Origin: an uncultured Candidatus Saccharibacteria bacterium
GTDB taxonomy: Bacteria > Patescibacteriota > Minisyncoccia > Phycocordibacterales > UBA9973
Direction of reading: 5' to 3'
Assembly: GCA_964527235.1 (NCBI GenBank)
Contig: CAZGNC010000001.1
Location: forward strand, 83,220-147,219
Length of the DNA stretch: 64,000 nt
Under the pieces are notes generated by a model. It saw only the letters and a list, made by a program, of their open reading frames with translations. It was not told the DNA's origin and did no database searches. Numbering within the stretch: position 1 is the stretch's first letter; the number at the start of each line of letters is the position of its first letter. Below are positions 4,129-53,967 of the stretch, piece by piece. Made by a program: the position numbers and the translations under genes.

Positions 4129-4165
4129 AAATCCCCCGCTTTAGGCAGGGGATTCTCATTTTTTC
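4129..4165. terminator. Bidirectional intrinsic terminator shared by the DUF192 gene (+) and rnpB (-)
   Basis: Hairpin AATCCCC-cgctttaggca-GGGGATT flanked by T-runs on both strands. Confidence 0.6.
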
Positions 4166-4514
4166 ATGGGTATCTATAAGCCGAATTCTGTGTTTTAGCC
4201 GAAGCTAAAAGATAGTAATTTATCTAGGCCCACACTTGCGTGGGGGCTCAAGCGATTCTCTCCAACCAAGGTCGGAGCACGATCTTGCACAGGGGTAAGG
4301 GTTTAGCCGTTTCACTCCTAATGTTGCCATCAGGACTCACCCTTGGCTTGCGCTTTGGGTGTCCCTAGATTTTCACCTCGGGACGTCTCTGCTCGCACCT
4401 ATACATTGCTGTACACGGGGGTTACCCGCTACCTGTCTCTCCGACCAAGGTCGGAGCTGTGTTCGGACTTTCCTCTATAAAGACCGAAGTCTCTACAGTA
4501 ACTATCCAATACCC
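4166..4514 (-). ncRNA. rnpB: RNase P RNA, bacterial type A
   Basis: The reverse complement reads 5' GGGUAU...AGAGGAAAGUCCGAACACAGCUCC...GGUGAAAA...GCUUGAGCC...GGCCUAGAUAAAUUACUAUC...ACAGAAUUCGGCUUAUAGAUACCC 3'. This matches the P4 halves (GGAAAGUCCG / ACAGAA..CGGCUUAU), the CUUGAGCC...GGCCUAGAU block and P1 pairing (GGGUAU/AUACCC), with covariation CCGAA/UUCGG in P4. A near-identical 21-nt hairpin (GCUCCGACCUUGGUYGGAGAG) occurs twice inside the RNA. Confidence 0.9.
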
Positions 4515-4545
4515 ACGTCTGCATCCTAGCATATTTCCCCAAAAC

Positions 4546-4691: not shown

Positions 4692-6581
4692 ATGCATCCT
4701 GGATTAGTGTCTTGGAAAAACTTACTCGTTTATTCTTTTAACGCTTTTTCAACTCCGCTTCTTTTGAAGACCTTGTTTGATCCTTGGAAGAGGGATGATG
4801 ACGTGGGGAGGAACTCAACATTTCTAGAAAGATTCGTCTTCGCTATTATCTCTCGAGTTCTGGGATTTATTGCTAGACTTTTCTTGATTCTTGTTGGACT
4901 TATTTTTTATTTATTGACAGTCTGCACTTTCCCTATTTTCTTTTTTGTACCTTTTAAAATCTCTACTGAGTATTTACAGAGTCTTGGGAGCGTCGGCGCA
5001 TCTCTATCTTATGGTGATACATATACACTAAATGCGCACAGTCGTGACGTGCTCTCACCGATAGCATTGAAACTTTTCGGTAAGGAGAAAACCTTTCGAA
5101 TGATCGAACGTGGGCTCGATAAAGACACCAACCACAATGTTTTGCTTGTGGGCGAGACGGGCTCTGGTAAGACTACAGTAGTGGACTATCTCGGTCGCCT
5201 AGGTCGCTCGGGGCTTTCTTTCCCAGGTATTCGTAACCATCGCGTGGTGGAGCTTTTCATGGAGGGTATAAGTATTGAGGATTTCGATCAAGCTCTTCGT
5301 GAAGCCAACTCTGCGGGCAATGTCGTTCTTGTGATTGAGAACATTCATAGTTATGAAAATATTTTCGATAGGATTATGCCGTACCTGGTGACTTCGAGTT
5401 TGGGAGTTGTGGTGACCACAGATTTTGCTAATTACGACAGAGTGCTTAAAAATTATCCAGAATTTCTTTCTAAGTTTGAGAAGGTTGATGTTCTACCTTC
5501 TAACTTCGAAGACACAGTAAATATAATTAAGAACCATGTTCGTATTTCTGGCACTAGGATCAAAGACGATGCAGTTTTAGAAATAGTCCGACTCTCTGAT
5601 AGATATATCGGCAACCAACCGCAACCACTTAAGTCACTATTGATTCTAGAAGAGCTTCGCTCGCTCAGAAAGACTATCACTATCGAAGACGTCGAGCAGG
5701 TGATTTCAGACAAAACCAACATGCCGATAGGGGCACTAAGTCGCGACGAGCGCTCTGTGTTGGTGGGCCTAGAGGACGCTATGAAGCGCAAGATCATCGG
5801 CCAGGAAGAAGCAGTTAAAGACGTGTGTAACGCCCTACAGCGCCTCCGCACGGGTATATCTGACCCTAGTAAGCCTGCAGGAAGCTTCTTGTTCTTGGGG
5901 CCTACTGGTGTGGGTAAGACCTATACAGCCAAGATCTTAGCTGAGAGTTATTTCGGTAGAAAGAATGCGATGATACGTTTCGATATGACTGAATTTTCTC
6001 TACCTGAGTCAGTGCCTACTTTCGTAGATAGACTGGCGTCAGTTATTGAAGAAGCGCCACTTTCGCTAGTATTTCTAGACGAGCTTGAGAAGTCGAACAG
6101 AATGATTCAGAATTTATTTTTGCAAATTCTAGACGAGGGGGGGCTGACTCGCGGTACAGGTAGAGAAGTGTCTTTCAAAGATGCATTAATCATCGCTACG
6201 TCTAACGCTGGAAGCGCGACAATAATACAAAATCCAAATATTGATAAGAAGACTTTGGTAAGTGATTTAATTCGCAATAATATTTTTGCGCCAGAATTTT
6301 TAAACAGATTTAGTAGTGTGGTACTCTTTGGCCCGCTTAGCGCAGATGAGGTGAGGGAAGTCGCCAAGCTTCTGCTTAACGAACTAGCTCAGAGGTTGCT
6401 TGAAGATAAAAATATAAAATTAGAAATTACCGAAGCGCTTGTAGACAAGATAGCGTTAGCGGGATTTGATTTAGAATTCGGTGCACGACCTATCAAGCGC
6501 GCAATTGAAGATATTGTAGAAAATAAAGTAGCGGACTACATAATGGCAGGGAATACTGGCGGAACTTTAAAGATTTTATAA
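4692..6581 (+). CDS. Clp/Hsp100-family double AAA+ ATPase (ClpC/ClpB-like) with an N-terminal transmembrane anchor in place of the Clp N-domain
   Basis: Two TM helices (aa ~50-95); D1 Walker A LLVGETGSGKTT; D2 Walker A FLFLGPTGVGKTYTAKILAE; LVFLDELEKS; C-terminal D2-small domain GARPIKRAIEDIV. Confidence 0.8.
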   Translation: MHPGLVSWKNLLVYSFNAFSTPLLLKTLFDPWKRDDDVGRNSTFLERFVFAIISRVLGFIARLFLILVGLIFYLLTVCTFPIFFFVPFKISTEYLQSLGSVGASLSYGDTYTLNAHSRDVLSPIALKLFGKEKTFRMIERGLDKDTNHNVLLVGETGSGKTTVVDYLGRLGRSGLSFPGIRNHRVVELFMEGISIEDFDQALREANSAGNVVLVIENIHSYENIFDRIMPYLVTSSLGVVVTTDFANYDRVLKNYPEFLSKFEKVDVLPSNFEDTVNIIKNHVRISGTRIKDDAVLEIVRLSDRYIGNQPQPLKSLLILEELRSLRKTITIEDVEQVISDKTNMPIGALSRDERSVLVGLEDAMKRKIIGQEEAVKDVCNALQRLRTGISDPSKPAGSFLFLGPTGVGKTYTAKILAESYFGRKNAMIRFDMTEFSLPESVPTFVDRLASVIEEAPLSLVFLDELEKSNRMIQNLFLQILDEGGLTRGTGREVSFKDALIIATSNAGSATIIQNPNIDKKTLVSDLIRNNIFAPEFLNRFSSVVLFGPLSADEVREVAKLLLNELAQRLLEDKNIKLEITEALVDKIALAGFDLEFGARPIKRAIEDIVENKVADYIMAGNTGGTLKIL

Positions 6582-6595
6582 AAAAGAAAACAAAG

Positions 6596-6622
6596 AGGCC
6601 CCGTGCTTGCGCGCGGGGCCAT
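6596..6622. terminator. GC hairpin GGCCCCGTGC-ttgc-GCGCGGGGCC at the left boundary of the GC-rich island
   Basis: Perfect stem with a T-rich tract on the minus-strand side (TCTTTGTTTTCTTTTTT), so it terminates the minus-strand lipoprotein gene. It may also act on the Clp-like gene. Confidence 0.55.
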
Positions 6623-6672
6623 GAATGTCTCTCTTTGATGTCAGCCGAGAGACGATTGGCTGTTTGCTTCAA

Positions 6673-8298
6673 CTACGAACTTCCTTCAACCCTTCGCATC
6701 TCTGCGAGAAGGGTAGCTTCACCTCCGGGCTCGAGCGTAGCACGAGCTTCGCCGATGAGGTCGTTAGACCCCGGCTTGACGCATCGCGAGGTGTACTCGC
6801 CGGGCAACATCCCGCGGAGAGTGGTGGGGGTGGTGAAGATTCCCACGATCCCTCCGTTTGTCCGAACTTCGCACTGCATCTCGGGCAGGTTTGCCCGGAT
6901 GTTCAGTGTGCCGCCCATGATGCAGATCAGCTTGGCTGTCTTGCCGGCTTCCACAACAGCGCGTCCTTCGCCGATGATCTGGCCACCAGAGCCAGGCTTC
7001 ACGCATTTCCCGATGTATTCACCGGGTTGTCTGTTTGTGAGCGTGGTGTCGGTCAGCCACGCTCCAATGATGGTTCCGCCGAACGACACCTTCATCTCGA
7101 CGGGACCGTCGATGTTGTCGGTCAACACCAAGGTTCCCGTGGTTGGTGCCGGCGGTGGCGGCGGAGGTGGCGGAGCCACTTCCTTTTCCACATCGCAGTT
7201 CGACACCGTGCGTTGGTCGACGTTCACCGCGACGGGTGGAACCAGTCGCGACACGTATCCAGCGGGAGCCGTGTACGTGACCGAATAGAATCCAGCCTCG
7301 ACATTGATGCTGTCGGGCAGGGCGGGGAAGGACTTCAGCACAGACGAACTTCCAAGCTTCCGCACTTCAGCTTTCACGCCTGCAACTGTGCAGGTAGCGA
7401 GCAGCTTGCCCATGATTCTGGGCGGCGGCGGTGGAGCCGGCGGTTCCGGCTTGAGCGGGTTGTCACACACCGCGTTTGCTGAACCTCCTGCTGGCACCAC
7501 AGCGTAGGCCGTATCGGCCATACGCTTTCCTTCGGGGTCTTCGCATACAACCACGTAGCCTCCCGCCTTGACCTTGAGGTCGAAGTCGGTCGTTTGTGTG
7601 GTCAAGAGAGACCCGTAGAGCGCCGTGTATACCTTCGCGCGCATCCCTCTGGGTGAGGAATACACGTTGAGCACTCCGCTGTCCGACGCTATGGTCGGGA
7701 GCGGAGTGAGGTCGACGAGGAGCGTCTTCGTCGTTCGCGGATCTGGTGTCCATTCGGCCAGCCTGCTAGCATAGCCAGCGCGGCTGAGCGCGAAGATGTA
7801 CGATGACCCGTTACCGACGACGCTCGCCGTGTGAGGCGTCGTCGCATTTGTGAGCTTGGTCCAAGTGGTCGCACCGTTTGTGCGAGCCTGAGCCATGCTG
7901 TCTACCTTGGCCGTCATGCCGTCCTGTGTGCGGACGATGATGGTGGCCATGCTGTCGAGCGGCATCGTGGTCGACGGTTTGACCGTGACGCTGTCGGAGG
8001 CCTGGGTGTTTCCACCAGGGCCAGATGCGAACGCCCGGTATCGTACCGAACGCGACGGGTAGTCCGTCAACGTGTCGCACTTGGCGACAGTGAACCCTCC
8101 GGGTGACACCTGGATGGTGTTGAACCCAGTACCGCAGACTTCAATCTGCACCGGTTGCCCGGTCGTGATCGAGTCCTGCTTGATGTTGATCGTGACCGTT
8201 GGCGCTTCAGGCGCCGACGGTGGGGCTGTGATCTCTTCTACCGGATTGTTACATCCGGCGAGGATGACGAGCCCTACGATTGCAGCGAATCTTTTCAT
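6673..8298 (-). CDS. Secreted lipoprotein with PEGA-like domains, poly-Pro linkers and two C-terminal repeated beta domains (high-GC island)
   Basis: Start is placed at MKRFAAIVGLVILAGC (lipobox LAGC) with RBS GAGGAA 5 nt upstream. The track ORF extends a further 44 codons to 8430. PEPPAPPPPP and PPPPPPPPAP linkers. PEGA-like GFYSVTYTAPAGYVS. Duplicated ~60-aa C-terminal unit (PGEYIGKCVKPGSGGQIIGEGRAV / PGEYTSRCVKPGSNDLIGEARATL). About 60% GC. Confidence 0.7.
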   Translation of the reverse strand: MKRFAAIVGLVILAGCNNPVEEITAPPSAPEAPTVTINIKQDSITTGQPVQIEVCGTGFNTIQVSPGGFTVAKCDTLTDYPSRSVRYRAFASGPGGNTQASDSVTVKPSTTMPLDSMATIIVRTQDGMTAKVDSMAQARTNGATTWTKLTNATTPHTASVVGNGSSYIFALSRAGYASRLAEWTPDPRTTKTLLVDLTPLPTIASDSGVLNVYSSPRGMRAKVYTALYGSLLTTQTTDFDLKVKAGGYVVVCEDPEGKRMADTAYAVVPAGGSANAVCDNPLKPEPPAPPPPPRIMGKLLATCTVAGVKAEVRKLGSSSVLKSFPALPDSINVEAGFYSVTYTAPAGYVSRLVPPVAVNVDQRTVSNCDVEKEVAPPPPPPPPAPTTGTLVLTDNIDGPVEMKVSFGGTIIGAWLTDTTLTNRQPGEYIGKCVKPGSGGQIIGEGRAVVEAGKTAKLICIMGGTLNIRANLPEMQCEVRTNGGIVGIFTTPTTLRGMLPGEYTSRCVKPGSNDLIGEARATLEPGGEATLLAEMRRVEGSS

Positions 8299-8329
8299 GT
8301 GTTCCTCATCGGGGGTTCTTGTGTGGGAG

Positions 8330-9391
8330 CTACTTGCGTTCGCTTGGTGTCCATCGGAGCATGGCCCCGAGTCTCCATCCGATTCCTTTTGTGGGGTTGT
8401 TGGGTGTCTTAGCAAGAGTGTTCTGGCCATAGGTAATGTCTAGGTTCCAGATCGCTCTCGTATCCTTGGCGATCTGTAGTCCTGCGTCCAGACCTAGGCG
8501 ACCATAGTTGTTCTGCTGAACCCAGTTTCCGTTTACTCCCTCCGTGCCGGAGGTGCATGTAATCTCATCATGTCCACCGCCGGCGGTCAAGCCGAATGGG
8601 CCAGAGATGTCTCTCCTGATTCCAAGGTCGAACGATTTGTTCGCTTGGCTGCAGGTTCGACTTTGTCCTCTGGGCGAGTATCCAACCCGCCCTGTGAGTT
8701 CGAACGGGACGACGCGGGCCTTAGCAAAGAATCCCACACCAAATGTGAATGTCGAAAGGCGTTTTCTGCCTCCCGAAATCCCGTATCCGGGGCCGACAGC
8801 GAGGTCGATCCAGGACTCGTTCTTCTTCGCCTCTTCCTTCTTACCGCTGTCGGCGTTCGAGTTGTCGATCATCTTCTGGACCACCCCGGCGATTTGCGCC
8901 GTGGTGTCCTTCAGCGCACTGATGTCCTTCTTGGCCGACTGCATGTCGGTATTGAGCGTGTCGACTGCCTTGGTGACAGTCGCCAACGAGTCGTTCGGCG
9001 GTGCCGAGGCGACTGGGCAATCGAGGGAGATCATCACACCACGGTACTGCGGACCGCGTTGTGGTACTGCAATTCCCTTGGCATGAATTCGTCCGAGTTC
9101 GATCTTCTCGATCTCGTTCAGGATTCTTGTTACGTTACCTGCGCGGCGATCCGCGAGGTCTTGGTTCTGCTCCTTGTTGTTGGTTTTGTAGGGGGTTCCG
9201 TCTGCGAACCCCGTGACGTTGATATGGCACGAAGTGCCCGCGGCAATCGCAATCTCTTTCAATGCCAGACGGGTCTCGTCCTTACCAAGTGTGTACCCCA
9301 TGAAGGGGTATACGGTCGCCTTCGTTTCCTGCGCCTTGAGGGCGAAGGGGAAGATGGCGACCATGAGGATGGTCAGAATGAAGCGAAACAC
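8330..9391 (-). CDS. OmpA-domain protein with inverted architecture: N-terminal OmpA-like peptidoglycan-binding domain, coiled coil, C-terminal beta-rich (barrel-like) domain (high-GC island)
   Basis: GTG start with RBS AGGAG-acaaa-GTG. The track ORF is longer, with an upstream ATG. Signal peptide FRFILTILMVAIFPFALKAQE. OmpA-like motif INVTGFADGTPYK...NQDLADRRAGNVTRILNE. Coiled coil, then alternating-hydrophobic segments ending ...GWRLGAMLRWTPSERK. Confidence 0.65.
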   Translation of the reverse strand: MFRFILTILMVAIFPFALKAQETKATVYPFMGYTLGKDETRLALKEIAIAAGTSCHINVTGFADGTPYKTNNKEQNQDLADRRAGNVTRILNEIEKIELGRIHAKGIAVPQRGPQYRGVMISLDCPVASAPPNDSLATVTKAVDTLNTDMQSAKKDISALKDTTAQIAGVVQKMIDNSNADSGKKEEAKKNESWIDLAVGPGYGISGGRKRLSTFTFGVGFFAKARVVPFELTGRVGYSPRGQSRTCSQANKSFDLGIRRDISGPFGLTAGGGHDEITCTSGTEGVNGNWVQQNNYGRLGLDAGLQIAKDTRAIWNLDITYGQNTLAKTPNNPTKGIGWRLGAMLRWTPSERK

Positions 9392-9691
9392 TTTGTCTCC
9401 TGCGTTGTTGGTTGTGTGACTATTCTTCGGCTTCCCGGTAAGCGTTTGTGTTATTCTATAGCTTTTTTCGTAGTTGAAGTTGTCAAGGTACTGTGATGCC
9501 GGGGGATCCGGCCCACAGAGATTGTTCTCATAAAGACGGATTCCGACTACTGACCTATTACTAGCATAAAAAGTGCATTTTGTCAATGCCTAGCTTGACG
9601 TTTTTGGATTTTATGAAAAAGACAAAGCCGGGTAGCGTGGTGTTCGCTATCCCGGCTCGGATGTCCTCGTTGATGTCCCCTGAGGAAGGGG

Positions 9692-10210
9692 TTACCGCCA
9701 GGTGCGAATCATCACACCTGTGTGCAGACCAAGTGCCTGCTCTCCGTGGTTATTTCTTGTCCAGGCGAGGCCTGGGGCAAGGATGATGCCGAGCTTCTTG
9801 ACGTGCAATGTGTATGCTGGGCCAAGAATCAGGCCCATCTCGCGTTCTCGCTCATCGCGACAATTGTTTGCCTCTATGAGGGCACCTGCTGTGGCGCCCC
9901 ATGGACCACGAATCTCACGATGAATTGAGGCGACCAGAGCGCTCGAGCGTTCAGTGCAGTGATCCCGGGCATTTGCCCAGAATCCTCCCTCTACTTCGAT
10001 GTCGGTCCGATGGTCGATTCGTACGATGCCGATGACGGTCGGTTTGGTGCTCGATCTGCCGTTTGAACGCAGGTCGGACACTCCCGCGCCGAAGTTCAGG
10101 CGCGGGGACGGATTGTGTACGGTCTGGTGCGAGCTGTCTGCGGGTGAGTGTTGCGCATGAGAATTAGTAGCCCATGCGAGAATCGCAAGAAAAGAAATAA
10201 TTATACGCAC
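9692..10210 (-). CDS. Small outer-membrane beta-barrel (OMP_b-brl/porin-family-like) protein with signal peptide (high-GC island)
   Basis: GTG start with RBS GGAG-aatctc-GTG. Signal peptide MRIIISFLAILAWATNSHAQ. The ~150-aa mature part has amphipathic beta-strand periodicity. Confidence 0.5.
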   Translation of the reverse strand: MRIIISFLAILAWATNSHAQHSPADSSHQTVHNPSPRLNFGAGVSDLRSNGRSSTKPTVIGIVRIDHRTDIEVEGGFWANARDHCTERSSALVASIHREIRGPWGATAGALIEANNCRDEREREMGLILGPAYTLHVKKLGIILAPGLAWTRNNHGEQALGLHTGVMIRTWR

Positions 10211-10329
10211 GAGATTCTCCGCCCGGACGGTAATGTAATGTACAAAAATCGTCGGGATTTCCGGCGATCAATATATTTTTATCACAAACTTGCGCACTTG
10301 TCGATTTTAAAAATTTCTAGTTTATGTAT

Positions 10330-10357
10330 TTGACTTTATTTTTATAAATGTTAGAGT
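10330..10357 (+). promoter_or_regulatory. Promoter TTGACT-16 nt-TAGAGT for the micro-gene
   Basis: TTGACT at 10330-10335 and TAGAGT at 10352-10357. The perfect SD AAGGAGGTGA at 10376-10385 follows. Confidence 0.45.
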
Positions 10358-10389
10358 TTTTATTCCTCTAGATATAAGGAGGTGATTGC

Positions 10390-10452
10390 ATGTTCAGTTT
10401 CGCCGATTTCGTGAACGCCGTCTTCGAAGGGTGGAAGCCGCTGAAGAAGTAG
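10390..10452 (+). CDS. 20-aa micro-protein MFSFADFVNAVFEGWKPLKK with a perfect Shine-Dalgarno site
   Basis: AAGGAGGTGA-ttgc-ATG. Followed by a perfect 13-bp inverted repeat (10466-10492) and an intrinsic terminator. Confidence 0.45.
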   Translation: MFSFADFVNAVFEGWKPLKK

Positions 10453-10530
10453 CGTCACCGTCGAGCCTCTCGGCACACAGTGTGCCGAGAGGCCAGCAAT
10501 CAAGAGCTTGTTAAGCTCTGCAGTATTTAA

Positions 10531-10570
10531 GGACCCTGCTCGCCACCGCGCGACAGGGTCCTGCTTTTTT
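10531..10570 (+). terminator. Intrinsic terminator GGACCCTG..CAGGGTCC followed by TTTTTTG
   Basis: 8-bp GC stem and a T6 run, after the micro-gene and its inverted repeat. Confidence 0.6.
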
Positions 10571-10797
10571 GTCTTAATGTGCAGGAATCTCAGTACAAAT
10601 TTTTTCTTATTTTTCTTCAGGACTCGGTCACGAGTTACTAAGTATTTTATTTCATTACATTTATAAAATACAAAGTACTCGCGACCCCGCCTCGACCACG
10701 ACCTTCGGTCGGCTTCGCGGTCTCCGGCTTTCTCGTCCTGTACAATCTCGCAAAATGTAAAACCCCATTGCTTTCGCAATAGGGCTATAACATTTTG

Positions 10798-10870
10798 TGG
10801 ACCGTACAGGACTCGAACCTGCCACCCCCTCATTGCAAATGAGGTGCTCTACCAGATGAGCTAACGGCCC
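10798..10870 (-). tRNA. tRNA-Ala (anticodon UGC)
   Basis: Reverse complement GGGCCGUUAGCUCAUCUGGUAGAGCACCUCAUUUGCAAUGAGGGGGUGGCAGGUUCGAGUCCUGUACGGUCCA. Cloverleaf with G3:U70 in the acceptor stem, the Ala identity element. Anticodon loop UUUGCAA. The 3' end faces the GC-rich island, and a terminator-like hairpin lies at 10763-10784. Confidence 0.9.
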
Positions 10871-10880
10871 AGTAAAAGGT

Positions 10881-10908
10881 ATTCTAAACCATTTTATTAA
10901 TAATGCAA
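10881..10908 (-). promoter_or_regulatory. Promoter for tRNA-Ala (TTGCAT-16 nt-TAGAAT, minus strand)
   Basis: Reverse complement TTGCATtattaataaaatggttTAGAAT, ending about 10 nt upstream of the tRNA 5' end. Confidence 0.5.
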
Positions 10909-10985
10909 ATCAATAGCCGGTCTTGTTGTTGTTTTTTCTCTGTTTTCTGTTAGTATAATAAAAGTTCTCTAGAGAATTATTGTAT

Positions 10986-11058
10986 TCCGGGGTAGCTCAG
11001 CGGTAGAGCGGTCGCCTGTTAAGCGATTGGTCGTAGGTTCGATCCCTACCCCCGGAGC
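10986..11058 (+). tRNA. tRNA-Asn (anticodon GUU)
   Basis: UCCGGGGUAGCUCAGCGGUAGAGCGGUCGCCUGUUAAGCGAUUGGUCGUAGGUUCGAUCCCUACCCCCGGAG. Anticodon loop CUGUUAA; acceptor, D, anticodon and T stems all pair. Confidence 0.85.
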
Positions 11059-11084
11059 TCGTTTTTTGGGATAATCTAAATTAT

Positions 11085-11519
11085 ATGAAGCCATGTGCGT
11101 ACTGTACTAAACCAGAAGCGAAGGAAAGAACTATTATAAAAAATGATTTAGCTTTTGCTTTTCCAACTTATATTCCGATAACTCCAGGGCATACTTTGAT
11201 TTGTCCTATTCGTTGTGTGGCAAAATTTAGCGAATTGTCCAAAGAAGAATTATCAGCAATCTTTGAGCTACAAAATAAACTTAATATCGCACTATCCAAA
11301 GCGTTCGGGGCAGAGGGTTTTAACTATGCTTGGAACGAAGGAGAAATAGGTGGTCAAGATGTGCCACATTTTCATTTACATATGGTGCCAAGAAAGTCAG
11401 GAGATGCTGGTATATATGGGTATGATCCTAGGAAATTTCTTTATCGACCTGGCTCTCGCGAGAAAACCCCTGAAGATGAATTAAAGCACGTTGTTTCTTT
11501 TATCCAGAGTTTTCTTTAA
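11085..11519 (+). CDS. HIT-family (histidine triad) hydrolase
   Basis: HIT motif DVPHFHLHMVPR. Confidence 0.85.
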   Translation: MKPCAYCTKPEAKERTIIKNDLAFAFPTYIPITPGHTLICPIRCVAKFSELSKEELSAIFELQNKLNIALSKAFGAEGFNYAWNEGEIGGQDVPHFHLHMVPRKSGDAGIYGYDPRKFLYRPGSREKTPEDELKHVVSFIQSFL

Positions 11520-11726
11520 TTCAGAAATTGCTAAGATAATTTTGCGAGTTGGTGCCCAGCCCGAGTTTTGCGACGGCAAAGTGAGAGGCGCGGGAGATAT
11601 CCCTACCCTTGATGCAGACTTGACGAAAATTTTTTAATGTGCAAAATAAAAATTGGTTATCACTCTATTTGCGTTGGTTTTTATACGCAGATAGGTTCCT
11701 TATAAAACAACGCAGACAACGCGGAG

Positions 11727-12152
11727 ATGGAACAAATGGACTCACTGCATCTGGCTGGGAACTTGGGTTGGCAAATACTTCTGGCGGTCATTACGCCGGT
11801 TGTGGTTTCTGTCTTCGTGATTGTGAAAGTATTTATGCCCAACGTGAACCGTGAGGAAGAGAGGGCTGTGTCAGTATCCCTGGCACAGCGCGTGGCGTCT
11901 TCTAGCCACGGCGTCAGGAAAGTCGAGCCCAACAAAGGTGCAACTCGTCTCCATTTGTTTCCTCGTGACGGAAAGATGGAGGATTGCGTCCTCTGGTTCT
12001 TCTCCGGTCACCCTGATTTCAAGGAGGTGTCTCGAATTCCTGAGGACATCATGTTCACAGTGGAATTTGTGTTCACCGAGGTCCCCGTCAAAGGGCAAGC
12101 TCAGGAAGCTACGGGGTATCTTCGGTTAAAGAAGATGCCTCTGGTGTTGTAG
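11727..12152 (+). CDS. Hypothetical membrane-anchored protein, GC-rich, SD-driven (foreign-looking)
   Basis: N-terminal TM segment GWQILLAVITPVVVSVFVIVKVF. GGAG upstream of ATG. About 52% GC against an AT-rich background. An intrinsic terminator follows at 12161-12203. Confidence 0.45.
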   Translation: MEQMDSLHLAGNLGWQILLAVITPVVVSVFVIVKVFMPNVNREEERAVSVSLAQRVASSSHGVRKVEPNKGATRLHLFPRDGKMEDCVLWFFSGHPDFKEVSRIPEDIMFTVEFVFTEVPVKGQAQEATGYLRLKKMPLVL

Positions 12153-12160
12153 TTTGGTAT

Positions 12161-12203
12161 TCGCCCGACAGGTCGCCCGACCTCTCGGGCGATTCTGTTT
12201 TTG
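12161..12203 (+). terminator. Intrinsic terminator TCGCCCGA-cctc-TCGGGCGA followed by TTCTGTTTTTG
   Basis: Perfect 8-bp stem plus a T-run. Confidence 0.6.
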
Positions 12204-12428
12204 TATACAATTTTATTTTAATATAGCCATTCGAACATCCTCCCAAGTTTGGAGCATGTGAAAATCTTAAATCCACGCAAGTGGGCTTTTGATTTTTTAG
12301 ACGAGGGGAGAAAGCCAACCATTTGGCTTTCTTGTAGGGATCGAGAAGTTCACTCATGTTTTTTTTCACAAGAAGTTAATTGAATAAAATTAACATTCCT
12401 CTAAAAATTGATAAAATAGGGCTATTGT

Positions 12429-13013
12429 ATGAATAACGATGATATAAAACTAGTTGCACTGGCTAAGGAAAACCCGAAGGAATATGAGAAACTATACACT
12501 AAATATTCTGATAAGGTTTTCAACTATTTCTGGTATCGCACTGGACATGACAAGATGCTATCAGAAGATCTTATGCAAGAAACATTTTTGCGAGGGTTTC
12601 AGTATTTAGGCCGATTTAATAATCGAGGATACTCATACCTGACATATTTGATAACCATTGCTCACAATGTACTAGTTGACCACTATCGCAAGCCACAATC
12701 AGTGCCTTTTGAAGCTATTGATGATATCCCATACGAGGTTACAGAAGATATTGAAAATAAATCAGATGCCGAAGCGCTTTGGCGAGCCATCCAAGATTTG
12801 CCATCCCCAAATAGGGACAAGCTCCTCATGTATTATCAGCAGGATATGTCAATTAAGGATATTGCCACTGCTACCAACACTACGGAAAATGCGGTAAAGC
12901 TTTCGCTTTCTCGAACCAGGAAGAAACTCAAAGATCATCCGTACATCAAGGATATTCGTGGATTTGCAGATAAGAAACGCGAGCAGACCCACGCACAGTT
13001 TTTGGATAAGTAG
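12429..13013 (+). CDS. RNA polymerase sigma factor, sigma-70/ECF-like family
   Basis: Region 2 LMQETFLRGFQYLGRFN...YLTYLITIAHNVLVDHYRK. Region 4 HTH DMSIKDIATATNTTENAVKLSLSRTRKKL. Confidence 0.8.
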   Translation: MNNDDIKLVALAKENPKEYEKLYTKYSDKVFNYFWYRTGHDKMLSEDLMQETFLRGFQYLGRFNNRGYSYLTYLITIAHNVLVDHYRKPQSVPFEAIDDIPYEVTEDIENKSDAEALWRAIQDLPSPNRDKLLMYYQQDMSIKDIATATNTTENAVKLSLSRTRKKLKDHPYIKDIRGFADKKREQTHAQFLDK

Positions 13014-13309
13014 ACACCTTTTTTGGTTAAATACGTTTAATATTTTGACAGTGAGGTGGTCACTCACTGTGGTATAGAAAAAATCAATGATACTTAAGTC
13101 AAATAATGTGAATTCAAAACAAAAAGTGGCTCAAGGGATTCATTCTTTAAATTTCTGATGCCACATACCTCCACACAACTAAATAGTGCCAGTATAAAAG
13201 ATTGCATAAGCAAGCAAGAGAAGGCATATAGCTTTCTGGTGTACCACCAATCCCCCTTGTGATAGATCGACGTCAAGGGCATTAATAGAATCTAATCTTC
13301 AACATACCT

Positions 13310-13807
13310 ATGAATACAGCAATTAAAAAAGTAGACAATAATTCTCTTCAAAGACGAGATGAGTTTTTGGGTCCGTTCTCTTTAGTTGATAGATTCTTTG
13401 ATGATGCGCTCGATTCGTTCTCTATGATGTCGCCAAACCTGTTCCGTCATAGGACGCTAGGTAACGTCAGCACGCTGTTCCCCAAGGTAGATGTTGAGGA
13501 AACAGAGAATGAGATAAAGGTGACAGCCAATATTCCAGGAATCGACGCGGAAAATATAAATGTCGAGGTTGGAGATGATTATCTGTCGCTTTCCGGAAAA
13601 ATTGAGAAAGAGGATAAGTCTAGAGACAGGCAAGGCAAAGTGTATCGCTATGAACGTGAGTTCGGTGAGTTCCGCAGAGAGTTTGCACTCCCTGCGAGAG
13701 TAGATAAGGATGGAATAATTGCCAGGTCTAAAAATGGTGTACTCTCCATCATATTGCCCAAGTCTGAAGAAGAGAAGAAGAAAAAGGTTAAGGTAGAAGT
13801 TGAGTAA
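13310..13807 (+). CDS. Hsp20/alpha-crystallin family small heat-shock protein
   Basis: ACD core VDVEETENEIKVTANIPGIDAENINVEV...LSLSGKIE...FGEFRREFALP...NGVLSIILPK. Terminator at 13826-13858. Confidence 0.9.
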   Translation: MNTAIKKVDNNSLQRRDEFLGPFSLVDRFFDDALDSFSMMSPNLFRHRTLGNVSTLFPKVDVEETENEIKVTANIPGIDAENINVEVGDDYLSLSGKIEKEDKSRDRQGKVYRYEREFGEFRREFALPARVDKDGIIARSKNGVLSIILPKSEEEKKKKVKVEVE

Positions 13808-13825
13808 GTGAAAGAAATATTAAAC

Positions 13826-13858
13826 AAAAACCCGCTTATGAGCGGGTTTTTGTTTTGG
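13826..13858 (+). terminator. Intrinsic terminator AAAAACCCGCT-tatg-AGCGGGTTTTTGTTTTGG
   Basis: Stem plus a long T-run after hsp20. Confidence 0.7.
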
Positions 13859-13928
13859 TTTTTACCGAAGTAAATTTACTATCTATGTTTAGCTCGAAAA
13901 TTTAGATAACTTCTGGTATTATTTACTT

Positions 13929-37926: not shown

Positions 37927-40900
37927 ATGAAATTAAGTAACAAAAAATTGAGCGGGAAAAAGGGTCCTAGAATGCTTTTCGGCGTTCAGGTTTTTTTCAT
38001 AACTTTTGCTCTAATTTTAAATTTATTTTTCACAAGTTTTGCTAACGCTACTGCTGGCGTTCCTCTAGTCATAAATTTTCAAGGACGATTGATGGATAAT
38101 GCGGGTGATCTTTTGGGTGGACCTTCTGGAACAGACTATTGTTATAAATTTTCTATTTATGACGCTACCACTGGAGGATCTAAAATTTGGCCGACAGGTT
38201 CTCCTTCGACTATGACCATCGTAACTCGTGAAGGAGTCTTCGATGCAAGTATCGGAGATACTGGTGCTGGAGGCGATGCGTTGGATTTAGCTTTCACTGA
38301 CGACCAGGCATATGTAAATGTTGAAGTTGCAGCTAAGGTGGGTGGCTCATGTACTACAGGTGGTGATGAAGTTTTCGAAACTCTATCACCTCGTCCGAGA
38401 ATTGTTTCTTCGGCTTTCGCTATAAATTCTAAAACTGTTGGAGGATTCACTCCAGCGCAATCCGCAACCAACAACCAGATTCCAGTTCTAACTTCTGGTT
38501 CACTTATACTTAGTCACGCAACTACTGCTGGTATAACCTCGTCAGGCGCAAACCCTCTTGCAGTAGATGCCGGTGCTTCTGGGGTATTAAATATTAACGG
38601 AACTTCAACAGGAGACATTCTAATCGGTGGAGGTTCTGGTTCTACTGGTTGTACGATTACTAACTCCTCTGGAGCATTTGCTTGTTCTGCTGGTATCTCG
38701 GGTACTACTGGCACTTTCTCAGGAGCCATCGCTGCTAACGGAGGCATCACATTCGACGCATCTACCGACACCATCGGAGCATTCACTGCAGCAGGGACGA
38801 TCGACATGAATGCAAACATCATTACCAACATCGGTAATGCTGGCACAGACTTCACAGCAACAGGAGGCTTAACATTAGACGACATACTCACAGTTAATGA
38901 CGACCTTACTGTTGCACTTTCAGGAAATGAGAACGTAGAGATTACTGATGGAGCTACTCCAACAACAGACATATTAAGCATCATAGCTGATGGAGCTTCA
39001 ATCACTAATGATGCTAACGCTTTAGAAATTGACTTTACCACAGGTGACGGAGCTAACGTAACTCAATCAGGATTACAGATTGATCTAGCTTCTGGAGGTA
39101 CTGCTTCTGGAGATACCATCTACGGTATCCATTTAACCATGGATGCAGCCGATGCTTCAACCCAAGACGCAATTTTCGTAAATGGTAACTTCGATACTAT
39201 CCTCGGTGGTACGACTGCTGGCACTTCAATATTCGACTTCACCAACTTCGATGTTACTTCTGCGGGAGCTATTTCTGGACTTAGTTTAGATCTTACAAGT
39301 GCAACACAAGCGACGATTAACCTAACTGATAGTGGTGACACATCTGGTCTTGGTATTATTAACTTTAAAGGAGGAGCTACTACAAGATTTCAAATACTTG
39401 GTAGAAACGATGTAACTACCGGCAATACTTTAACTTTCACCGATGGAACCAATGAACTTGTAAGAATTACCGACAATGGTCGTGTGGGTATCGGATCAAC
39501 TGACCCTGAAGACCTCCTCGAAGTTCAAGGAGCCGAAGCCACAGATTCAGTGTTAGTACTTGATGCTGACGATGGTGATGATGCTGCTGACACATGGTTT
39601 GTAAAATCTGTTGCTACAAGTAACTCTCTTTCAATACTAAATGATGTCACAGAAAGATTCGCTTTAACTTCTGCAGGGAATCTTCAGTTTGATGGAACAC
39701 TTACCTCAGGCTCCGGCAACACCGTCCTCACTCTCTCTACCGGTATGATTGATGCAGATGCACTTACTCTAACAACAGCCGCAGACGGAGGTACAGGTAC
39801 TTCTTCAGGCTCAGGACTTATTGTAAGAAGTGATGGTATAGGATTACTACAAGGTTGTACTGATGGACAAGTGCTGGCATGGGTAGAGTCTACTGATACT
39901 TGGGATTGTGCGACAGCGAGTGGAGGAGTATCTGACGGAGACAAGGGAGATGTAACAGTTTCGGGTTCTGGGGCAACCTGGACTGTGGACTATACTTCTT
40001 CTGATGGAGTAGGTGGCACCTCAACATCTGGGGGGCTCGAACAAGGCACAGGAGGCATAGGATTATTACAGGGTTGTGCTGATAATGAAATTTTGAAATG
40101 GAATGATGGCACTTCTGTCTGGGCGTGTGCTACTGACGCTACATCTGCTGGTGCTGGAGTTTCTACAATTCAAGAAGGAGATAGCACCATAGAAGGTTCA
40201 GCTTCGACTATAGATTTCTTAGCTGCTGATTTTACAGTTACAAGTTCTCCAGCCGGTGAAGCGAACATAGTAATTGATTACACAAACTCAGGAATAACTC
40301 GAAACAGCCAGAACGAAGCAATAACTGGTGACTGGGGCTTTACTTTAGGAGCGGGAGAGGCTATAGATTTTGTTGCTGGGGCTGCGCCAACTGTAGACAT
40401 GGTAGAAATTGGAAATACTGGTCAAGGGACCACTACTACTGGCGTTGATGGATTAGAAATAAATTTCGTAACAGCAGCGGTGGCTGGTTCAGTAGAGAAC
40501 TCTGCTTTAGAGATTATCCTTGATCCTTCAGGAGCCACAGAAGCAGGAGATCAAGTTAATGCTGTTGACATAGCCAACATAACCAATCCAACAGGGCTAA
40601 CTACAGGAGTGAGAGTTGGTAGTGGGTACGATGTCGGTATCGCTTTCAGGGATTCTGCTGGAGATTATGTAGGATTTAAAGCTCCTGCAGATGTAACAAC
40701 AACTACGACTTGGACACTACCAGCTGCGGATGCTGCGGGATGTTTTAAATCTGATGGCTCTGGAAACATGTCTATAAGTTCTTGCGGTGATACTAAGGTT
40801 CAGGTCTATGATTCCAACACTACTTATACAGTTCCCGCTGATGCTCAGATGATAATAATTGAAGCTATCGGTGGAGGAGGATCTGGAGGTGGTGGTGCGC

Positions 40901-52890: not shown

Positions 52891-53967
52891 ATGCGATTTT
52901 TAGATCTTAAAAAATATTTTCCAGAAACCATACTCATCGTATTTTTTCTATTGTTCGGTGTTGCTTACTTTGCAAGTGCAGAGACTCTGACTAGTACGAA
53001 TTTTATTATCAAAGATCCAGTGATAGGCACAGGAGGGGGCTACGGATCTTCTGCTAGTTTTCAATTGCTTTCTGAGGGTGATAAAGTTTTGACCGGAGCA
53101 GGCTCATCTACTTCTTTTATTGGGCATTATGGATTTTTATATTATCCATTCATTACTGAAGCTGTGCTTACCGCCGTTGCCAATGGTTCTGATGGCGACC
53201 TGACTTGGACTGCCTCTGATGCTGGACAAGGCTGGACTGTATCAGGCTACAACGTGGGTAAGGCGACAGCACCTGGCGGTCCTTATACTTACATTGATGT
53301 CGGCAATGTGTTGCTTTATAGTTATGACAATCTTGCACCCGGGGATTACTGCTTTGTGGTGCAGACTTATGATGTGTTTGATTATGTGATTGCTACATCT
53401 AATGAAGACTGTATAACGATATTACCCACCATTGTTTTCGACTTAGACACTGAGGCTGGCGGTGGCACAGGAGAATCTTCTACTCCATATAGTGTAGGTT
53501 TGGGAGTTATCTCGACCTCAGACACCCGTGTCTCTGGAACTACCGATGGCATACAGATGATTGTCGCTGAAGGAGAGACAAATGCTACGAGTGGCGTGGT
53601 AGTCACTGTGCGTAATACGAATGGTGCAAATGGTCTGGCTTCCACCTCAGTGCCTGCTGATGATATCGATAGTGCTGATGGCACCATGGCTGATGGCACA
53701 GAGAACTATGGTTTATGTGTGGCGACTGCAGGACTTACTGGGTTTGCTCGATCTTCACCTTACAATTCTGGTACTTGTGCGACCGATTCCGAAACCAATG
53801 ACATTCAGGGTTTGACTTCAGTGGGGGAGAATATATTAAATTCTGCGACGGTACCGATGGTGGGAGGTCATGCTGAGATTATAGTCAATGGCGCCATTAG
53901 CAACATCACTCCTGCTCATTCGGATTACACCGACACCTTAACTTTCATTGCGACCAGCACATTTTAG
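52891..53967 (+). CDS. Secreted cell-surface protein, paralog A (divergent N-terminal half, conserved C-terminal ~190 aa)
   Basis: Signal peptide ...AYFASAET. The C-terminal region is ~80% identical at protein level to paralog B (SSTPYSVGLGVISTSDTRVSGTTD...HSDYTDTLTFIATSTF). Confidence 0.6.
   Translation: MRFLDLKKYFPETILIVFFLLFGVAYFASAETLTSTNFIIKDPVIGTGGGYGSSASFQLLSEGDKVLTGAGSSTSFIGHYGFLYYPFITEAVLTAVANGSDGDLTWTASDAGQGWTVSGYNVGKATAPGGPYTYIDVGNVLLYSYDNLAPGDYCFVVQTYDVFDYVIATSNEDCITILPTIVFDLDTEAGGGTGESSTPYSVGLGVISTSDTRVSGTTDGIQMIVAEGETNATSGVVVTVRNTNGANGLASTSVPADDIDSADGTMADGTENYGLCVATAGLTGFARSSPYNSGTCATDSETNDIQGLTSVGENILNSATVPMVGGHAEIIVNGAISNITPAHSDYTDTLTFIATSTF

What the first reader, a model, noticed from the sequence alone, without database searches (positions are those of the whole stretch)
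10330..10570. Self-contained micro-gene: promoter, perfect SD, 20-codon ORF, perfect 13-bp inverted repeat and terminator
TTGACT-16-TAGAGT, then AAGGAGGTGA-4-ATG, encodes MFSFADFVNAVFEGWKPLKK. It is followed by CCTCTCGGCACAC/GTGTGCCGAGAGG and a GC-stem/T6 terminator. Such a cleanly built ~200-nt unit inside the foreign GC island could be a regulatory leader peptide, a small toxin or type I TA-like element, or a dual-function sRNA.
Basis: seen in the sequence. Interest (0 to 1): 0.5.

Follow-up and report, generated by a model that had tools for sequence, protein, structure and literature searches.

The report
Orphan 20-codon micro-gene in CPR bacterium
A complete miniature gene (promoter, ribosome-binding site, 20-codon reading frame, three hairpins, terminator) really is there, as a roughly 260-bp insertion found only in this one uncultivated Patescibacteria lineage, but nothing like it turned up in any database searched, so its function is a guess.

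Summary
The host is a ~40% GC Patescibacteria (Paceibacteria-like) bacterium whose own genes have essentially no Shine-Dalgarno (SD) sequences. The micro-gene carries a 12-nt perfect SD, unique in the 64 kb.

The 20-codon ORF shows a strong coding-type GC periodicity (GC1/2/3 = 0.45/0.30/0.85, p = 8e-4). Its codon usage matches the adjacent GC-rich envelope-protein genes, not the host.

The unit (about 10307/10333 to 10567) is missing from the same intergenic spot in the closest relative with data (ClpA-like protein 94% identical) and in a more distant one. It is therefore a lineage-specific indel in a hypervariable locus next to tRNA-Ala.

No homologue of the peptide or the DNA was found in Rfam, Pfam, NCBIfam, PHROGs, PDB, 5.8 billion proteins, GTDB genomes, JGI metagenomes, IMG/VR, phages or plasmids.

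Leader-peptide attenuation is excluded. A type I toxin-antitoxin reading is not supported.

Best guess (about 0.4): an orphan, autonomously expressed small-protein gene for an amphipathic 20-aa peptide. Rivals are a non-functional relic of imported DNA and an sRNA. Conservation cannot be tested. Interest is moderate.

The parts
10330..10357 (+). Sigma-70-type promoter-like site: -35 TTGACT (10330-10335), 16-nt spacer, TG (10349-10350), -10 TAGAGT (10352-10357). The implied transcription start is about 10364.
   Evidence: 9 of 12 matches, TG present. At chance level on its own. Host tRNA-Ala has a comparable TTTGCA-17-TAGAAT site, so this promoter type is plausible in the host.
10365..10369 (+). 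CCUCU at the predicted 5' end of the transcript. It is predicted to pair with the SD (anti-SD, 5-bp hairpin, dG -5.6 kcal/mol).
   Evidence: the SD bases have an unpaired probability of about 0.01 in the ensemble. This is a prediction only.
10375..10386 (+). Shine-Dalgarno sequence TAAGGAGGTGAT: 12 nt complementary to the canonical 16S rRNA 3' tail, with the GGAGG core 7 nt from the AUG.
   Evidence: unique in the window; 44 host ORFs reach at most 6 nt; only 2 of 44 have any SD-like 4-mer.
10390..10452 (+). 20-codon ORF plus TAG stop, encoding MFSFADFVNAVFEGWKPLKK.
   Evidence: GC1/2/3 = 0.45/0.30/0.85, p = 8e-4, and synonymous codon usage is island-like rather than host-like (log2 likelihood ratio 9.7). 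Helical hydrophobic moment (muH) 0.41, p about 0.03 against shuffles.
10383..10389 (+). UGAUUGC, the spacer between SD and AUG. It is predicted to pair with GCAAUCA at 10496-10502, a long-range helix that encloses the ORF and the palindrome.
   Evidence: A 7-bp helix, not statistically compelling; prediction only.
10465..10493 (+). Perfect palindrome GCCUCUCGGCACAC-A-GUGUGCCGAGAGGC (13 bp plus a 3-nt loop as RNA, dG -26.5 kcal/mol), 13 nt after the stop codon, with no U-tract after it.
   Evidence: Logan contig L001 breaks inside it.
10503..10519 (+). Second perfect hairpin, AGAGCUU-GUU-AAGCUCU (dG -7.7 kcal/mol).
10520..10529 (+). Single-stranded AU-rich linker (GCAGUAUUUA) just before the terminator.
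   Evidence: unpaired probability 0.7-1.0. The resemblance to Hfq-binding modules of sRNAs is from general knowledge and was not tested.
10530..10570 (+). Intrinsic terminator: stem AGGACCCUG / CAGGGUCCU with an inner 4-bp stem, then GC, then U6 (dG -23.7 kcal/mol).
   Evidence: It persists when the ORF is forced single-stranded.
10307..10567 (.). Extent of the lineage-specific indel relative to L003 and L002. The left edge lies between 10307 and 10333 depending on the alignment; the right edge lies in the terminator T-run.
   Evidence: Homology with L003 stops at about 10307 and resumes at 10579 (83% identity).
9692..10210 (-). Divergently transcribed neighbour: a 172-aa signal-peptide protein of the GC-rich locus. 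Its conserved promoter-like site (TCGACA 10304-10299) lies 25 bp from the micro-gene's -35.
10797..10870 (-). tRNA-Ala(TGC), convergent with the micro-gene. Its 3' end faces the micro-gene and the GC-rich locus.

Best explanation
The feature is an orphan, autonomously expressed small-protein gene. It is carried on a roughly 235-260-bp lineage-specific insertion at the tRNA-Ala-proximal edge of a GC-rich, hypervariable envelope-protein locus, in a Patescibacteria (Paceibacteria-like) genome.

Proposed mechanism, with the basis for each step:
1. A sigma-70-type promoter with an extended -10 starts a transcript of about 205 nt near 10364. The motif is shown; transcription is inferred.
2. The 25-nt leader begins with CCUCU, which can mask the 12-nt SD and so dampen or gate initiation (predicted).
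3. Ribosomes that engage the SD translate a 20-residue peptide. This is inferred from the SD, its spacing, and the GC3-rich, island-type codon usage.
4. The peptide is a single amphipathic helix (residues about 2-16) with a cationic PLKK tail and no signal peptide. Its most likely action is at a membrane or on a membrane protein, in the way phenol-soluble-modulin-like or other small amphipathic peptides work (inferred from physico-chemistry only).
5. The perfect palindrome, the second hairpin and the terminator form a translation-independent 3' block that ends the transcript before the convergent tRNA-Ala. They probably also protect it from 3' exonucleases (the structure is predicted; the role is inferred).

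The unit shares the expression style of the neighbouring GC-rich genes (SD-led, GC3-rich) rather than that of the SD-free host. It therefore probably came from the same gene pool as that locus.
For: - Anatomy confirmed.
- The SD is unique in 64 kb and 12 nt long, at optimal spacing, in a genome where 2 of 44 ORFs have any SD-like 4-mer.
- The ORF has coding-type periodicity in exactly the SD-AUG frame: GC3 0.85 against 0.45 and 0.30, p = 8e-4.
- Synonymous codon usage fits the three adjacent GC-rich genes far better than the host genes (log2 likelihood ratio 9.7).
- Those three genes also have SD-like motifs at their probable starts (GAGGA, AGGAG, GGAG).
- The 42-codon ORF in the alternative frame has GC3 0.43, so it does not look coding.
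- The peptide's helical hydrophobic moment (muH) is 0.41, peaking at 100-110 degrees, p about 0.03 against shuffles. That is in the range I computed for PSM-alpha and PSM-mec peptides, and unlike Ibs, ErmCL or TnaC (the comparison sequences are from memory).
- The whole unit behaves as one indel: it is absent at the same site in L003 (ClpA-like 94% identical, backbone DNA 81-85%) and in L002.
- The left junction and the ORF are reproduced in an independent assembly.
Against: - No homologue of the peptide or the DNA exists in any collection searched. Purifying selection on the frame therefore cannot be shown.
- GC3 periodicity proves a coding origin, not present-day translation.
- The host seems not to use SD-led initiation, so the SD may be inert or behave abnormally there. 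The 16S 3' end of this organism was not available.
- The promoter match is no better than chance for AT-rich DNA.
- No exporter or partner gene is evident.
- Twenty residues and a hydrophobic-moment p of 0.03 are thin grounds for a function.
- There is no expression data.
Confidence: 0.4

Rival explanations
1. Non-functional relic. The GC-rich body (10390-10562) is the 3' end of a gene, its last 20 codons plus its terminator hairpins, from the GC-rich gene pool. It was left behind or imported by recombination in this integration hotspot. The promoter-like and SD-like sequences in the adjoining AT-rich DNA make it only look like a gene.
For: - The composition switches abruptly from 24% GC (10300-10389) to 57% (10390-10562), right at the ATG.
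- A stop codon followed by a perfect U-less hairpin and then a terminator is typical gene-end architecture.
- All stems are perfect, and the unit is absent from relatives. Both fit recency rather than selection.
- The locus is a hotspot. L003 carries repeats resembling the tRNA-Ala 3' end, L005 has a serine-recombinase element at the neighbouring tRNA-Asn, and there are many indels around the tRNAs.
- The promoter match is at chance level.
- L003 has a GGAGG-4-ATG at the equivalent site, so an SD-ATG may have pre-existed.
Against: - The junction would have to fall exactly on an ATG placed 7 nt after the only 12-nt perfect SD in 64 kb, in an SD-depleted genome. That is improbable by chance.
- No protein among 5.8 billion shares even three 5-residue words with the peptide, so no parent gene is known.
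Confidence: 0.25
2. Regulatory small RNA, possibly dual-function. The structured transcript of about 205 nt is itself the effector, base-pairing with targets through its single-stranded stretches. The ORF is secondary or incidental.
For: - The predicted structure is very stable (-93.7 kcal/mol, z = -6.2).
- The SD is masked in the ensemble.
- A single-stranded AU-rich stretch lies directly before a strong terminator. From general knowledge this resembles the 3' module of many trans-acting sRNAs.
- It has its own promoter and terminator in an intergenic region.
- Precedents such as RNAIII/hld and psm-mec couple a PSM-type peptide to a regulatory RNA (general knowledge).
Against: - No Rfam family matches, even at E up to 10.
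- There are no homologues, so no covariation can be assessed.
- No extended complementarity exists elsewhere in the window beyond 11-13-nt chance matches.
- GC3 periodicity in the SD-AUG frame is not expected of a purely non-coding RNA.
- The z-score mostly restates three perfect hairpins.
- Whether Hfq or ProQ-type chaperones exist in this lineage is unknown.
Confidence: 0.2
3. Type I toxin-antitoxin-like module. A structured, translationally masked mRNA encodes a small toxic membrane peptide held in check by an antisense RNA, and the module stabilises the variable locus.
For: - The peptide is small, with a hydrophobic N-terminal part and a cationic tail.
- The SD is predicted to be sequestered by a 5' anti-SD, and a long-range 5'-3' helix encloses the ORF. 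From general knowledge this is reminiscent of hok, tisB and aapA1 mRNAs.
- It sits at the edge of a variable, island-like region.
Against: - The peptide is amphipathic, not a transmembrane helix: H 0.21 and muH 0.41 against IbsC at 0.71 and 0.19, with D6, N9 and E13 in the core.
- No promoter-like site on the opposite strand passes the scan between 10330 and 10680. By eye, the best candidate matches only 8 of 12 positions.
- There are no direct or inverted repeats that could give a trans antitoxin, beyond AT-rich chance matches.
- No Pfam or NCBIfam toxin family matches.
Confidence: 0.07
4. Leader peptide of a transcription or translation attenuator, either active or orphaned by loss of its downstream gene.
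For: - A short ORF is followed by hairpins and a terminator.
- Four of the 20 codons are Phe, all TTC.
Against: - There is no gene downstream on the strand. The next feature is the convergent tRNA-Ala, 227 nt away.
- The three hairpins are independent perfect stems with no alternative antiterminator pairing. All persist when the ORF is constrained to be ribosome-covered or stalled.
- The Phe codons are not consecutive.
- The peptide's hydrophobic moment is unlike that of ErmCL or TnaC.
Confidence: 0.03

Closest known systems
Phage/island 'morons' (autonomous promoter-gene-terminator cassettes inserted between resident genes)
   Same: It is a complete transcription unit with its own promoter and terminator. 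It is present as a single indel relative to close relatives. Its codon composition differs from the host's. It sits in a tRNA-adjacent integration hotspot.
   Different: No prophage or phage-like genes flank it: PHROGs gives only weak hits (best E 0.026) for the neighbouring proteins. The cargo is only 20 codons. No homologous cassette was found in IMG/VR or INPHARED.
Alpha-type phenol-soluble modulins and psm-mec / RNAIII-hld (staphylococcal amphipathic peptides, some encoded inside regulatory RNAs, one on a mobile element)
   Same: The peptide is about 20 residues with no signal peptide. It is a single amphipathic helix with comparable H and muH. It is encoded in a short, highly structured transcript at the edge of a variable locus.
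   Different: There is no sequence similarity and no Pfam or NCBIfam hit. No Pmt-like exporter or agr-like regulator is nearby. The host is a Patescibacteria bacterium. Activity is untested. The comparison rests on physico-chemistry and on peptide sequences recalled from memory.
Type I toxin mRNAs (hok, tisB, ibs, aapA1)
   Same: It is a small ORF in a stable mRNA, with a predicted anti-SD/SD hairpin and a 5'-3' long-range helix.
   Different: The peptide is not a transmembrane helix. No antitoxin RNA signal was found.
SD-led exceptions in SD-poor bacteria (e.g. rpsU autoregulation in Flavobacteria; general knowledge, not checked in the literature here)
   Same: A strong SD stands out in a genome whose genes otherwise lack SDs.
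   Different: The lineage is unrelated and the gene is not a ribosomal protein. Whether the anti-SD is present, free or sequestered in this organism is unknown.

Membership tests
Transcription-attenuation leader peptide | A regulated gene or operon lies downstream on the same strand. | tested here: not met
   After the terminator the next feature is the convergent tRNA-Ala at 10797-10870 (-).
Transcription-attenuation leader peptide | Mutually exclusive terminator and antiterminator structures are coupled to ribosome position. | tested here: not met
   Constrained folds with the ORF single-stranded, or with a ribosome stalled early, keep the palindrome, hairpin 2 and the terminator unchanged.
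Type I toxin-antitoxin | The toxin is a small hydrophobic peptide that forms a transmembrane helix. | tested here: not met
   Mean hydrophobicity 0.21, muH 0.41, with D6, N9 and E13 inside the hydrophobic part. Ibs and TisB controls differ.
Type I toxin-antitoxin | An antisense or adjacent antitoxin RNA is complementary to the toxin mRNA. | tested here: inconclusive
   No opposite-strand promoter-like site at the scan's threshold. No meaningful repeats within about 400 nt. No RNA data are available.
Type I toxin-antitoxin | The toxin mRNA has a sequestered ribosome-binding site or a long-range fold. | tested here: met
   SD unpaired probability is about 0.01. The 10383-10389 / 10496-10502 helix appears in both the MFE and the centroid structure. 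Prediction only.
Known RNA family (Rfam 15) | A covariance-model match at or near the gathering score. | tested here: not met
   Only the tRNAs and RNase P RNA match in the window. In 10150-10900, nothing apart from the tRNA scores above 21.4 bits, against family cut-offs of 44-100.
Phenol-soluble-modulin-like peptide | An amphipathic helical peptide of about 20-25 residues, made without a signal peptide. | tested here: met
   muH 0.41 at 100 degrees (0.51 at 110), p about 0.03 against shuffles. No signal sequence.
Phenol-soluble-modulin-like peptide | Sequence membership in a PSM, delta-lysin or other small-protein family. | tested here: not met
   No Pfam, NCBIfam, PHROGs or PDB hit at E up to 10, or up to 1 for PHROGs.
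Phenol-soluble-modulin-like peptide | Membrane-lytic or surfactant activity and a dedicated exporter. | not testable with these tools
   This needs synthetic peptide assays. No ABC exporter is adjacent in the window.
Moron-type cassette | Own promoter and terminator, and present or absent as a unit between conserved flanks. | tested here: met
Moron-type cassette | Resides within a prophage or other recognisable mobile element. | tested here: not met
   No integrase or phage genes lie between ClpA and the tRNAs in the window. Only att-like repeat remnants were seen, in L003.
Dual-function sRNA | A demonstrated base-pairing target and a translated ORF. | not testable with these tools
   No complementarity above chance in the 64-kb window. 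The rest of the genome and expression data are unavailable.

The most novel reading that the evidence does not exclude
In a Patescibacteria genome that has abandoned Shine-Dalgarno-led initiation, this unit is a purpose-built SD-dependent micro-cistron. It has a 12-nt perfect SD, gated by a 5' anti-SD, driving a PSM-like amphipathic peptide from a structured RNA. That would make it the first dual-function RNA/peptide effector described in a CPR episymbiont. Its output would depend on the availability of ribosomes with a free anti-SD tail, and its product would act on the symbiont's or its host cell's membrane.
Probability: 0.07. Interest if true: 0.75.

Novelty: new member of a known kind. Interest (0 to 1): 0.38.

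Why it matters
If the peptide is made, it would be a rare documented small protein in the Candidate Phyla Radiation. These organisms live attached to other cells, and their effectors are almost unknown. It would also show an SD-led gene working inside an SD-free translation regime.

The context is useful whatever the gene does. It shows that the 'GC island' is a genus-wide, fast-evolving envelope-protein locus next to a tRNA integration hotspot. That is the kind of place where lineage-specific accessory units appear.

If the unit is only a relic, it is a clean example of how imported DNA can mimic a complete gene.

Tried and rejected
**RNA families**
- Rfam at gathering score and at E up to 10 gave nothing for the unit.
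- It is not a tmRNA or tRNA.

**DNA searches**
- Exact or degenerate pattern scans returned 0 hits:
  - the palindrome, the terminator, SD-ATG and a 12-codon back-translation in IMG/VR;
  - a 10-codon pattern with free third positions in GTDB genomes and in JGI metagenomes.
- blastn 'distant' against INPHARED phages and PLSDB plasmids gave only chance matches of 21-43 nt.

**Peptide searches**
- The peptide doubled to 40 aa found no candidate sharing three 5-residue words among 5.8 billion proteins.
- Pfam, NCBIfam, PHROGs and PDB gave nothing.
- A literature string search gave nothing.
- Looking up the spurious alternative-frame (42 aa) and antisense (157 aa) ORFs, as proxies for other copies, found nothing on record.

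**Copies and relatives**
- There are no paralogues or second copies in the window or in the fetched loci.
- Relatives of the neighbouring 172-aa gene number only two beyond the identical contig. The GTDB and JGI scans added none.
- Closer relatives found through the ClpA-like cluster (L008, L009) have contigs that end before the site.

**Structural and element hypotheses considered and rejected**
- MITE or IS605-like element: the 12-nt AT-rich inverted repeat 10340-10351 / 10657-10668 does not match the indel boundaries and is near chance.
- Integron attC, rolling-circle single-strand origin (a lone TAGCGT), and a 16S fragment (only the 12-nt SD matches): all rejected by inspection.
- DGR template or variable repeat: the unit has no second copy, and the one long repeat in the window is ordinary paralogy.
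- Attenuator.
- An att-like copy of the tRNA-Ala 3' end elsewhere in the window: none within 3 mismatches.
- Assembly chimera: unlikely, because two junctions would be needed within 260 bp and the left one is independently reproduced.

**Sample identity**
- The sample accessions appear in no paper in the library searched.
Full report
**1. Observation**

- Promoter: TTGACT (10330-10335), a 16-nt spacer, TAGAGT (10352-10357), with a TG two bases upstream of the -10.
- Ribosome-binding site: AAGGAGGTGA (10376-10385), 4 nt before the ATG at 10390.
- ORF: 20 codons ending in TAG at 10450-10452, encoding MFSFADFVNAVFEGWKPLKK.
- Inverted repeat: perfect, with arms of 14 nt rather than 13 (10465-10478 / 10480-10493).
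- Second perfect hairpin, 7 bp, at 10503-10519.
- Interrupted GC-rich stem (10530-10562), followed by GC and T6.

An RNA fold of 10365-10575 gives -93.7 kcal/mol, z = -6.2 against dinucleotide shuffles.

Not every element is individually meaningful.
- The promoter match is at chance level for this AT-rich stretch (3 sites against 2.7 expected in 2 kb).
- A 20-codon open frame has about a 50% chance in sequence of this composition.
- The z-score largely restates three perfect stems.

What is beyond chance is the ribosome-binding site and the codon structure, covered in sections 2 and 3.

**2. Host and setting**

The ClpA-like protein encoded just left of the GC-rich block (4692-6581) has hundreds of close homologues. 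Their source names are 'Patescibacteria group bacterium', 'Candidatus Paceibacterota', 'Pacebacteria' and 'Nomurabacteria'. The window therefore comes from a CPR bacterium of about 40% GC.

Its genes do not use Shine-Dalgarno sequences.
- Of 44 host ORFs, only 2 have any GGAG/GAGG/AGGA between -20 and -4. That is below the 12% background.
- 14 have a -10-like box a few bases before the start codon, which suggests frequent leaderless mRNAs.

Against this background, the micro-gene's TAAGGAGGTGAT is a 12-nt perfect complement to the canonical 16S 3' tail, with the GGAGG core 7 nt from the AUG. It is unique in the 64 kb.

The three genes of the adjacent GC-rich block encode:
- a PEGA-like, proline-rich lipoprotein (585-aa ORF);
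- an OmpA-like protein (418-aa ORF);
- a 172-aa signal-peptide protein.

All three have shorter SD-like motifs at their probable starts.

**3. Coding signal**

In the SD-AUG frame the ORF has GC1/GC2/GC3 = 0.45/0.30/0.85 (Fisher p = 8e-4; about 2e-3 after allowing for three phases).
- Host genes have GC3 of about 0.26-0.43.
- The three GC-rich neighbours have GC3 of 0.58-0.69.
- Synonymous codon choice fits the neighbours far better than the host (log2 likelihood ratio 9.7).
- The 42-codon alternative frame has GC3 0.43.
- The 3' hairpin region shows no periodicity.

So these 60 nt are, or recently were, protein-coding sequence in exactly the frame the SD selects, written in the same dialect as the neighbouring locus.

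**4. Comparative evidence**

The 172-aa neighbour has only two homologues among 5.8 billion clustered proteins, plus an identical copy on a short Logan contig that breaks inside the palindrome. Scans of GTDB species genomes and JGI metagenomes added none.

L003 is a congener of the window genome.
- ClpA-like protein is 94% identical.
- Backbone DNA is 81-85% identical, against 72-75% in the alignable parts of the GC-rich block.
- The arrangement is the same: ClpA, three GC-rich genes, tRNA-Ala, tRNA-Asn.

L002 is more distant.

In both relatives the conserved 5' region of the 172-aa gene is present. Homology to the window stops at about 10307. In L003 it resumes at 10579-10642 (83% identity). 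The micro-gene is simply absent. The unit is therefore one indel of about 235-260 bp, and a gain in the window's lineage is the parsimonious reading.

Further context on the locus:
- The 'GC island' is not a recent import into this genome alone. L003 has the same GC-rich block, and L009 carries homologues of two of its genes. Its proteins are only 43-58% identical between genomes whose ClpA is 94-95% identical. It is a hypervariable envelope-protein locus.
- More distant relatives (L005, L006; ClpA 77-80% identical) have ClpA, tRNA-Ala and tRNA-Asn on one strand, with no such block. L005 carries a large serine-recombinase element abutting tRNA-Asn.
- L003 carries two or three short repeats that resemble the 3' end of tRNA-Ala.
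- Together these mark the tRNA pair as an integration hotspot. The micro-gene lies on the side faced by the 3' end of tRNA-Ala.

**5. Database searches for the unit itself**

All were negative.

| Target | Result |
|---|---|
| Rfam, gathering score and E up to 10 | nothing for the unit |
| Peptide against Pfam, NCBIfam, PHROGs, PDB | nothing |
| Doubled peptide against 5.8 billion proteins | no candidate |
| Degenerate 10-12-codon patterns in IMG/VR, GTDB genomes, JGI metagenomes | 0 hits |
| Exact palindrome, terminator and SD-ATG in IMG/VR | 0 hits |
| blastn against phage and plasmid collections | chance matches only |
| Literature string search | nothing |
| Second copy in the window or fetched loci | none |

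**6. Mechanistic readings**

*Attenuation is excluded.* There is no downstream gene on the strand. The three 3' stems are independent and persist whether the ORF is free, covered by ribosomes or stalled.

*A type I toxin is not supported.* The peptide is amphipathic: H 0.21, helical moment 0.41 peaking at 100-110 degrees, p about 0.03. It has acidic and polar residues inside the hydrophobic part, unlike Ibs or TisB. No opposite-strand promoter-like site or complementary repeat was found. The mRNA does show predicted SD masking by the 5'-terminal CCUCU and a 7-bp long-range helix (10383-10389 / 10496-10502).

*Three readings remain.*
- (a) A genuine orphan small-protein gene, my best estimate at about 0.4.
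- (b) A relic: the last 20 codons and terminators of a GC-rich gene, joined to AT-rich DNA (about 0.25).
  - For it: the sharp compositional switch at the ATG, the perfect (young) stems and the hotspot context.
  - Against it: the junction would have to coincide with an ATG placed optimally behind the only 12-nt SD in an SD-depleted 64 kb.
- (c) A structured sRNA, possibly dual-function (about 0.2).
  - For it: the single-stranded AU-rich stretch before the terminator and the stable fold.
  - Against it: the codon periodicity.

**7. Comparison with known systems**

Functionally the unit most resembles a moron-type autonomous cassette whose cargo is a PSM-like amphipathic peptide. psm-mec and RNAIII/hld are the nearest analogies for a peptide embedded in a structured RNA on a variable element. 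It is not a member of any of these families. It has no sequence relationship to them, no phage context and no exporter, and the type I TA and attenuator definitions fail on tested features.

The most unusual aspect is a maximal SD in an SD-free CPR genome. Whether that SD is functional depends on the organism's 16S 3' tail, which was not in the data.

**8. Verdict**

It is best filed as a new, orphan member of a known kind (a small ORF or moron-like cassette), with function unproven.

Interest is moderate at 0.38. The anatomy and the SD contrast are striking, and CPR small proteins are essentially unexplored. But there is a single sequence, no conservation and no expression evidence.

Noticed in passing
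window, whole (e.g. starts at 920, 2213, 4692, 28524(-), 33119): Host genes essentially lack Shine-Dalgarno motifs: 2 of 44 ORFs against a 12% background. About a third have a TATAAT-like box 4-11 nt before the start codon, which suggests widespread leaderless or non-SD initiation in this Patescibacteria genome.
   Followed up: partly
window 6600-10210; L003 10001-13460; L009 3798-6443: The GC-rich three-gene block (55-62% GC in a 40% GC genome) encodes a PEGA-like, proline-rich lipoprotein, an OmpA-like protein and a 172-aa secreted protein. Homologous genes are found in congeneric genomes, and L003 (the relative measured) shows the same GC-rich composition. These proteins are only 43-58% identical where the flanking ClpA-like protein is 94-95% identical, so this is a hypervariable envelope locus that keeps its high GC3. 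Assemblies of relatives often break here.
   Followed up: partly
window 10797-11058; L005 2022-3709; L006 6533-6794: More distant relatives have ClpA, tRNA-Ala and tRNA-Asn all on one strand, with no GC block. In the window and in L003, tRNA-Ala plus the block are inverted. L005 has a 499-aa large serine recombinase abutting tRNA-Asn. The tRNA pair looks like an integration hotspot.
   Followed up: partly
L003 9750-9960 (minus strand); window 10571-10643 and 10729-10740: Short repeats (TTTCTCGTCCTG followed by GACCGTACAGGAATCTCGGTCAT) resemble the 3' end of tRNA-Ala. They occur 2-3 times between the 172-aa gene homologue and tRNA-Ala in L003, with degenerate remnants in the window. They may be att-site relics. 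No further copy lies elsewhere in the window within 3 mismatches.
   Followed up: partly
L003 about 9895-9975 (minus strand): At the spot where the window has the micro-gene, L003 has GGAGG-4-ATG opening a 26-codon ORF (MVFSSWSYRNLGHFLLILSQDSVTSY). Its 3' half is homologous at the DNA level to window 10579-10641, but with a 2-nt indel that breaks the frame. It could be coincidence or the trace of an older micro-ORF.
   Followed up: partly
window 10248-10268: A 21-nt hairpin (ATCGTCGGGATTTCCGGCGAT) sits in the conserved 5' region of the 172-aa gene, just downstream of its TCGACA-18-AAAAAT promoter-like site. It is kept in L002 and L003, with base changes on both arms of the stem.
   Followed up: no
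window 11063-13927: The block holding the HIT-family, ECF-type sigma factor and Hsp20 genes is largely absent from L003. Only two fragments of 71-95 nt align there. This is another large indel beside the tRNA pair.
   Followed up: no
window 40850-41780: The second GC peak (55%) is not an island. It is a run of GGAGGTGGAGGAGGT-type glycine-rich repeats inside the 1937-aa ORF (37927-43740), which has no Pfam match.
   Followed up: no
window 52891-53967 and 54068-55225: Two adjacent paralogous genes of unknown function share a stretch of about 200 nt at 72-83% identity. The differences are spread over all bases, so this is ordinary paralogy and not a DGR template/variable repeat pair.
   Followed up: yes
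window 4161-4517 (-): A bacterial class A RNase P RNA (112 bits, just above the gathering score of 100) lies immediately upstream of the ClpA-like gene.
   Followed up: no
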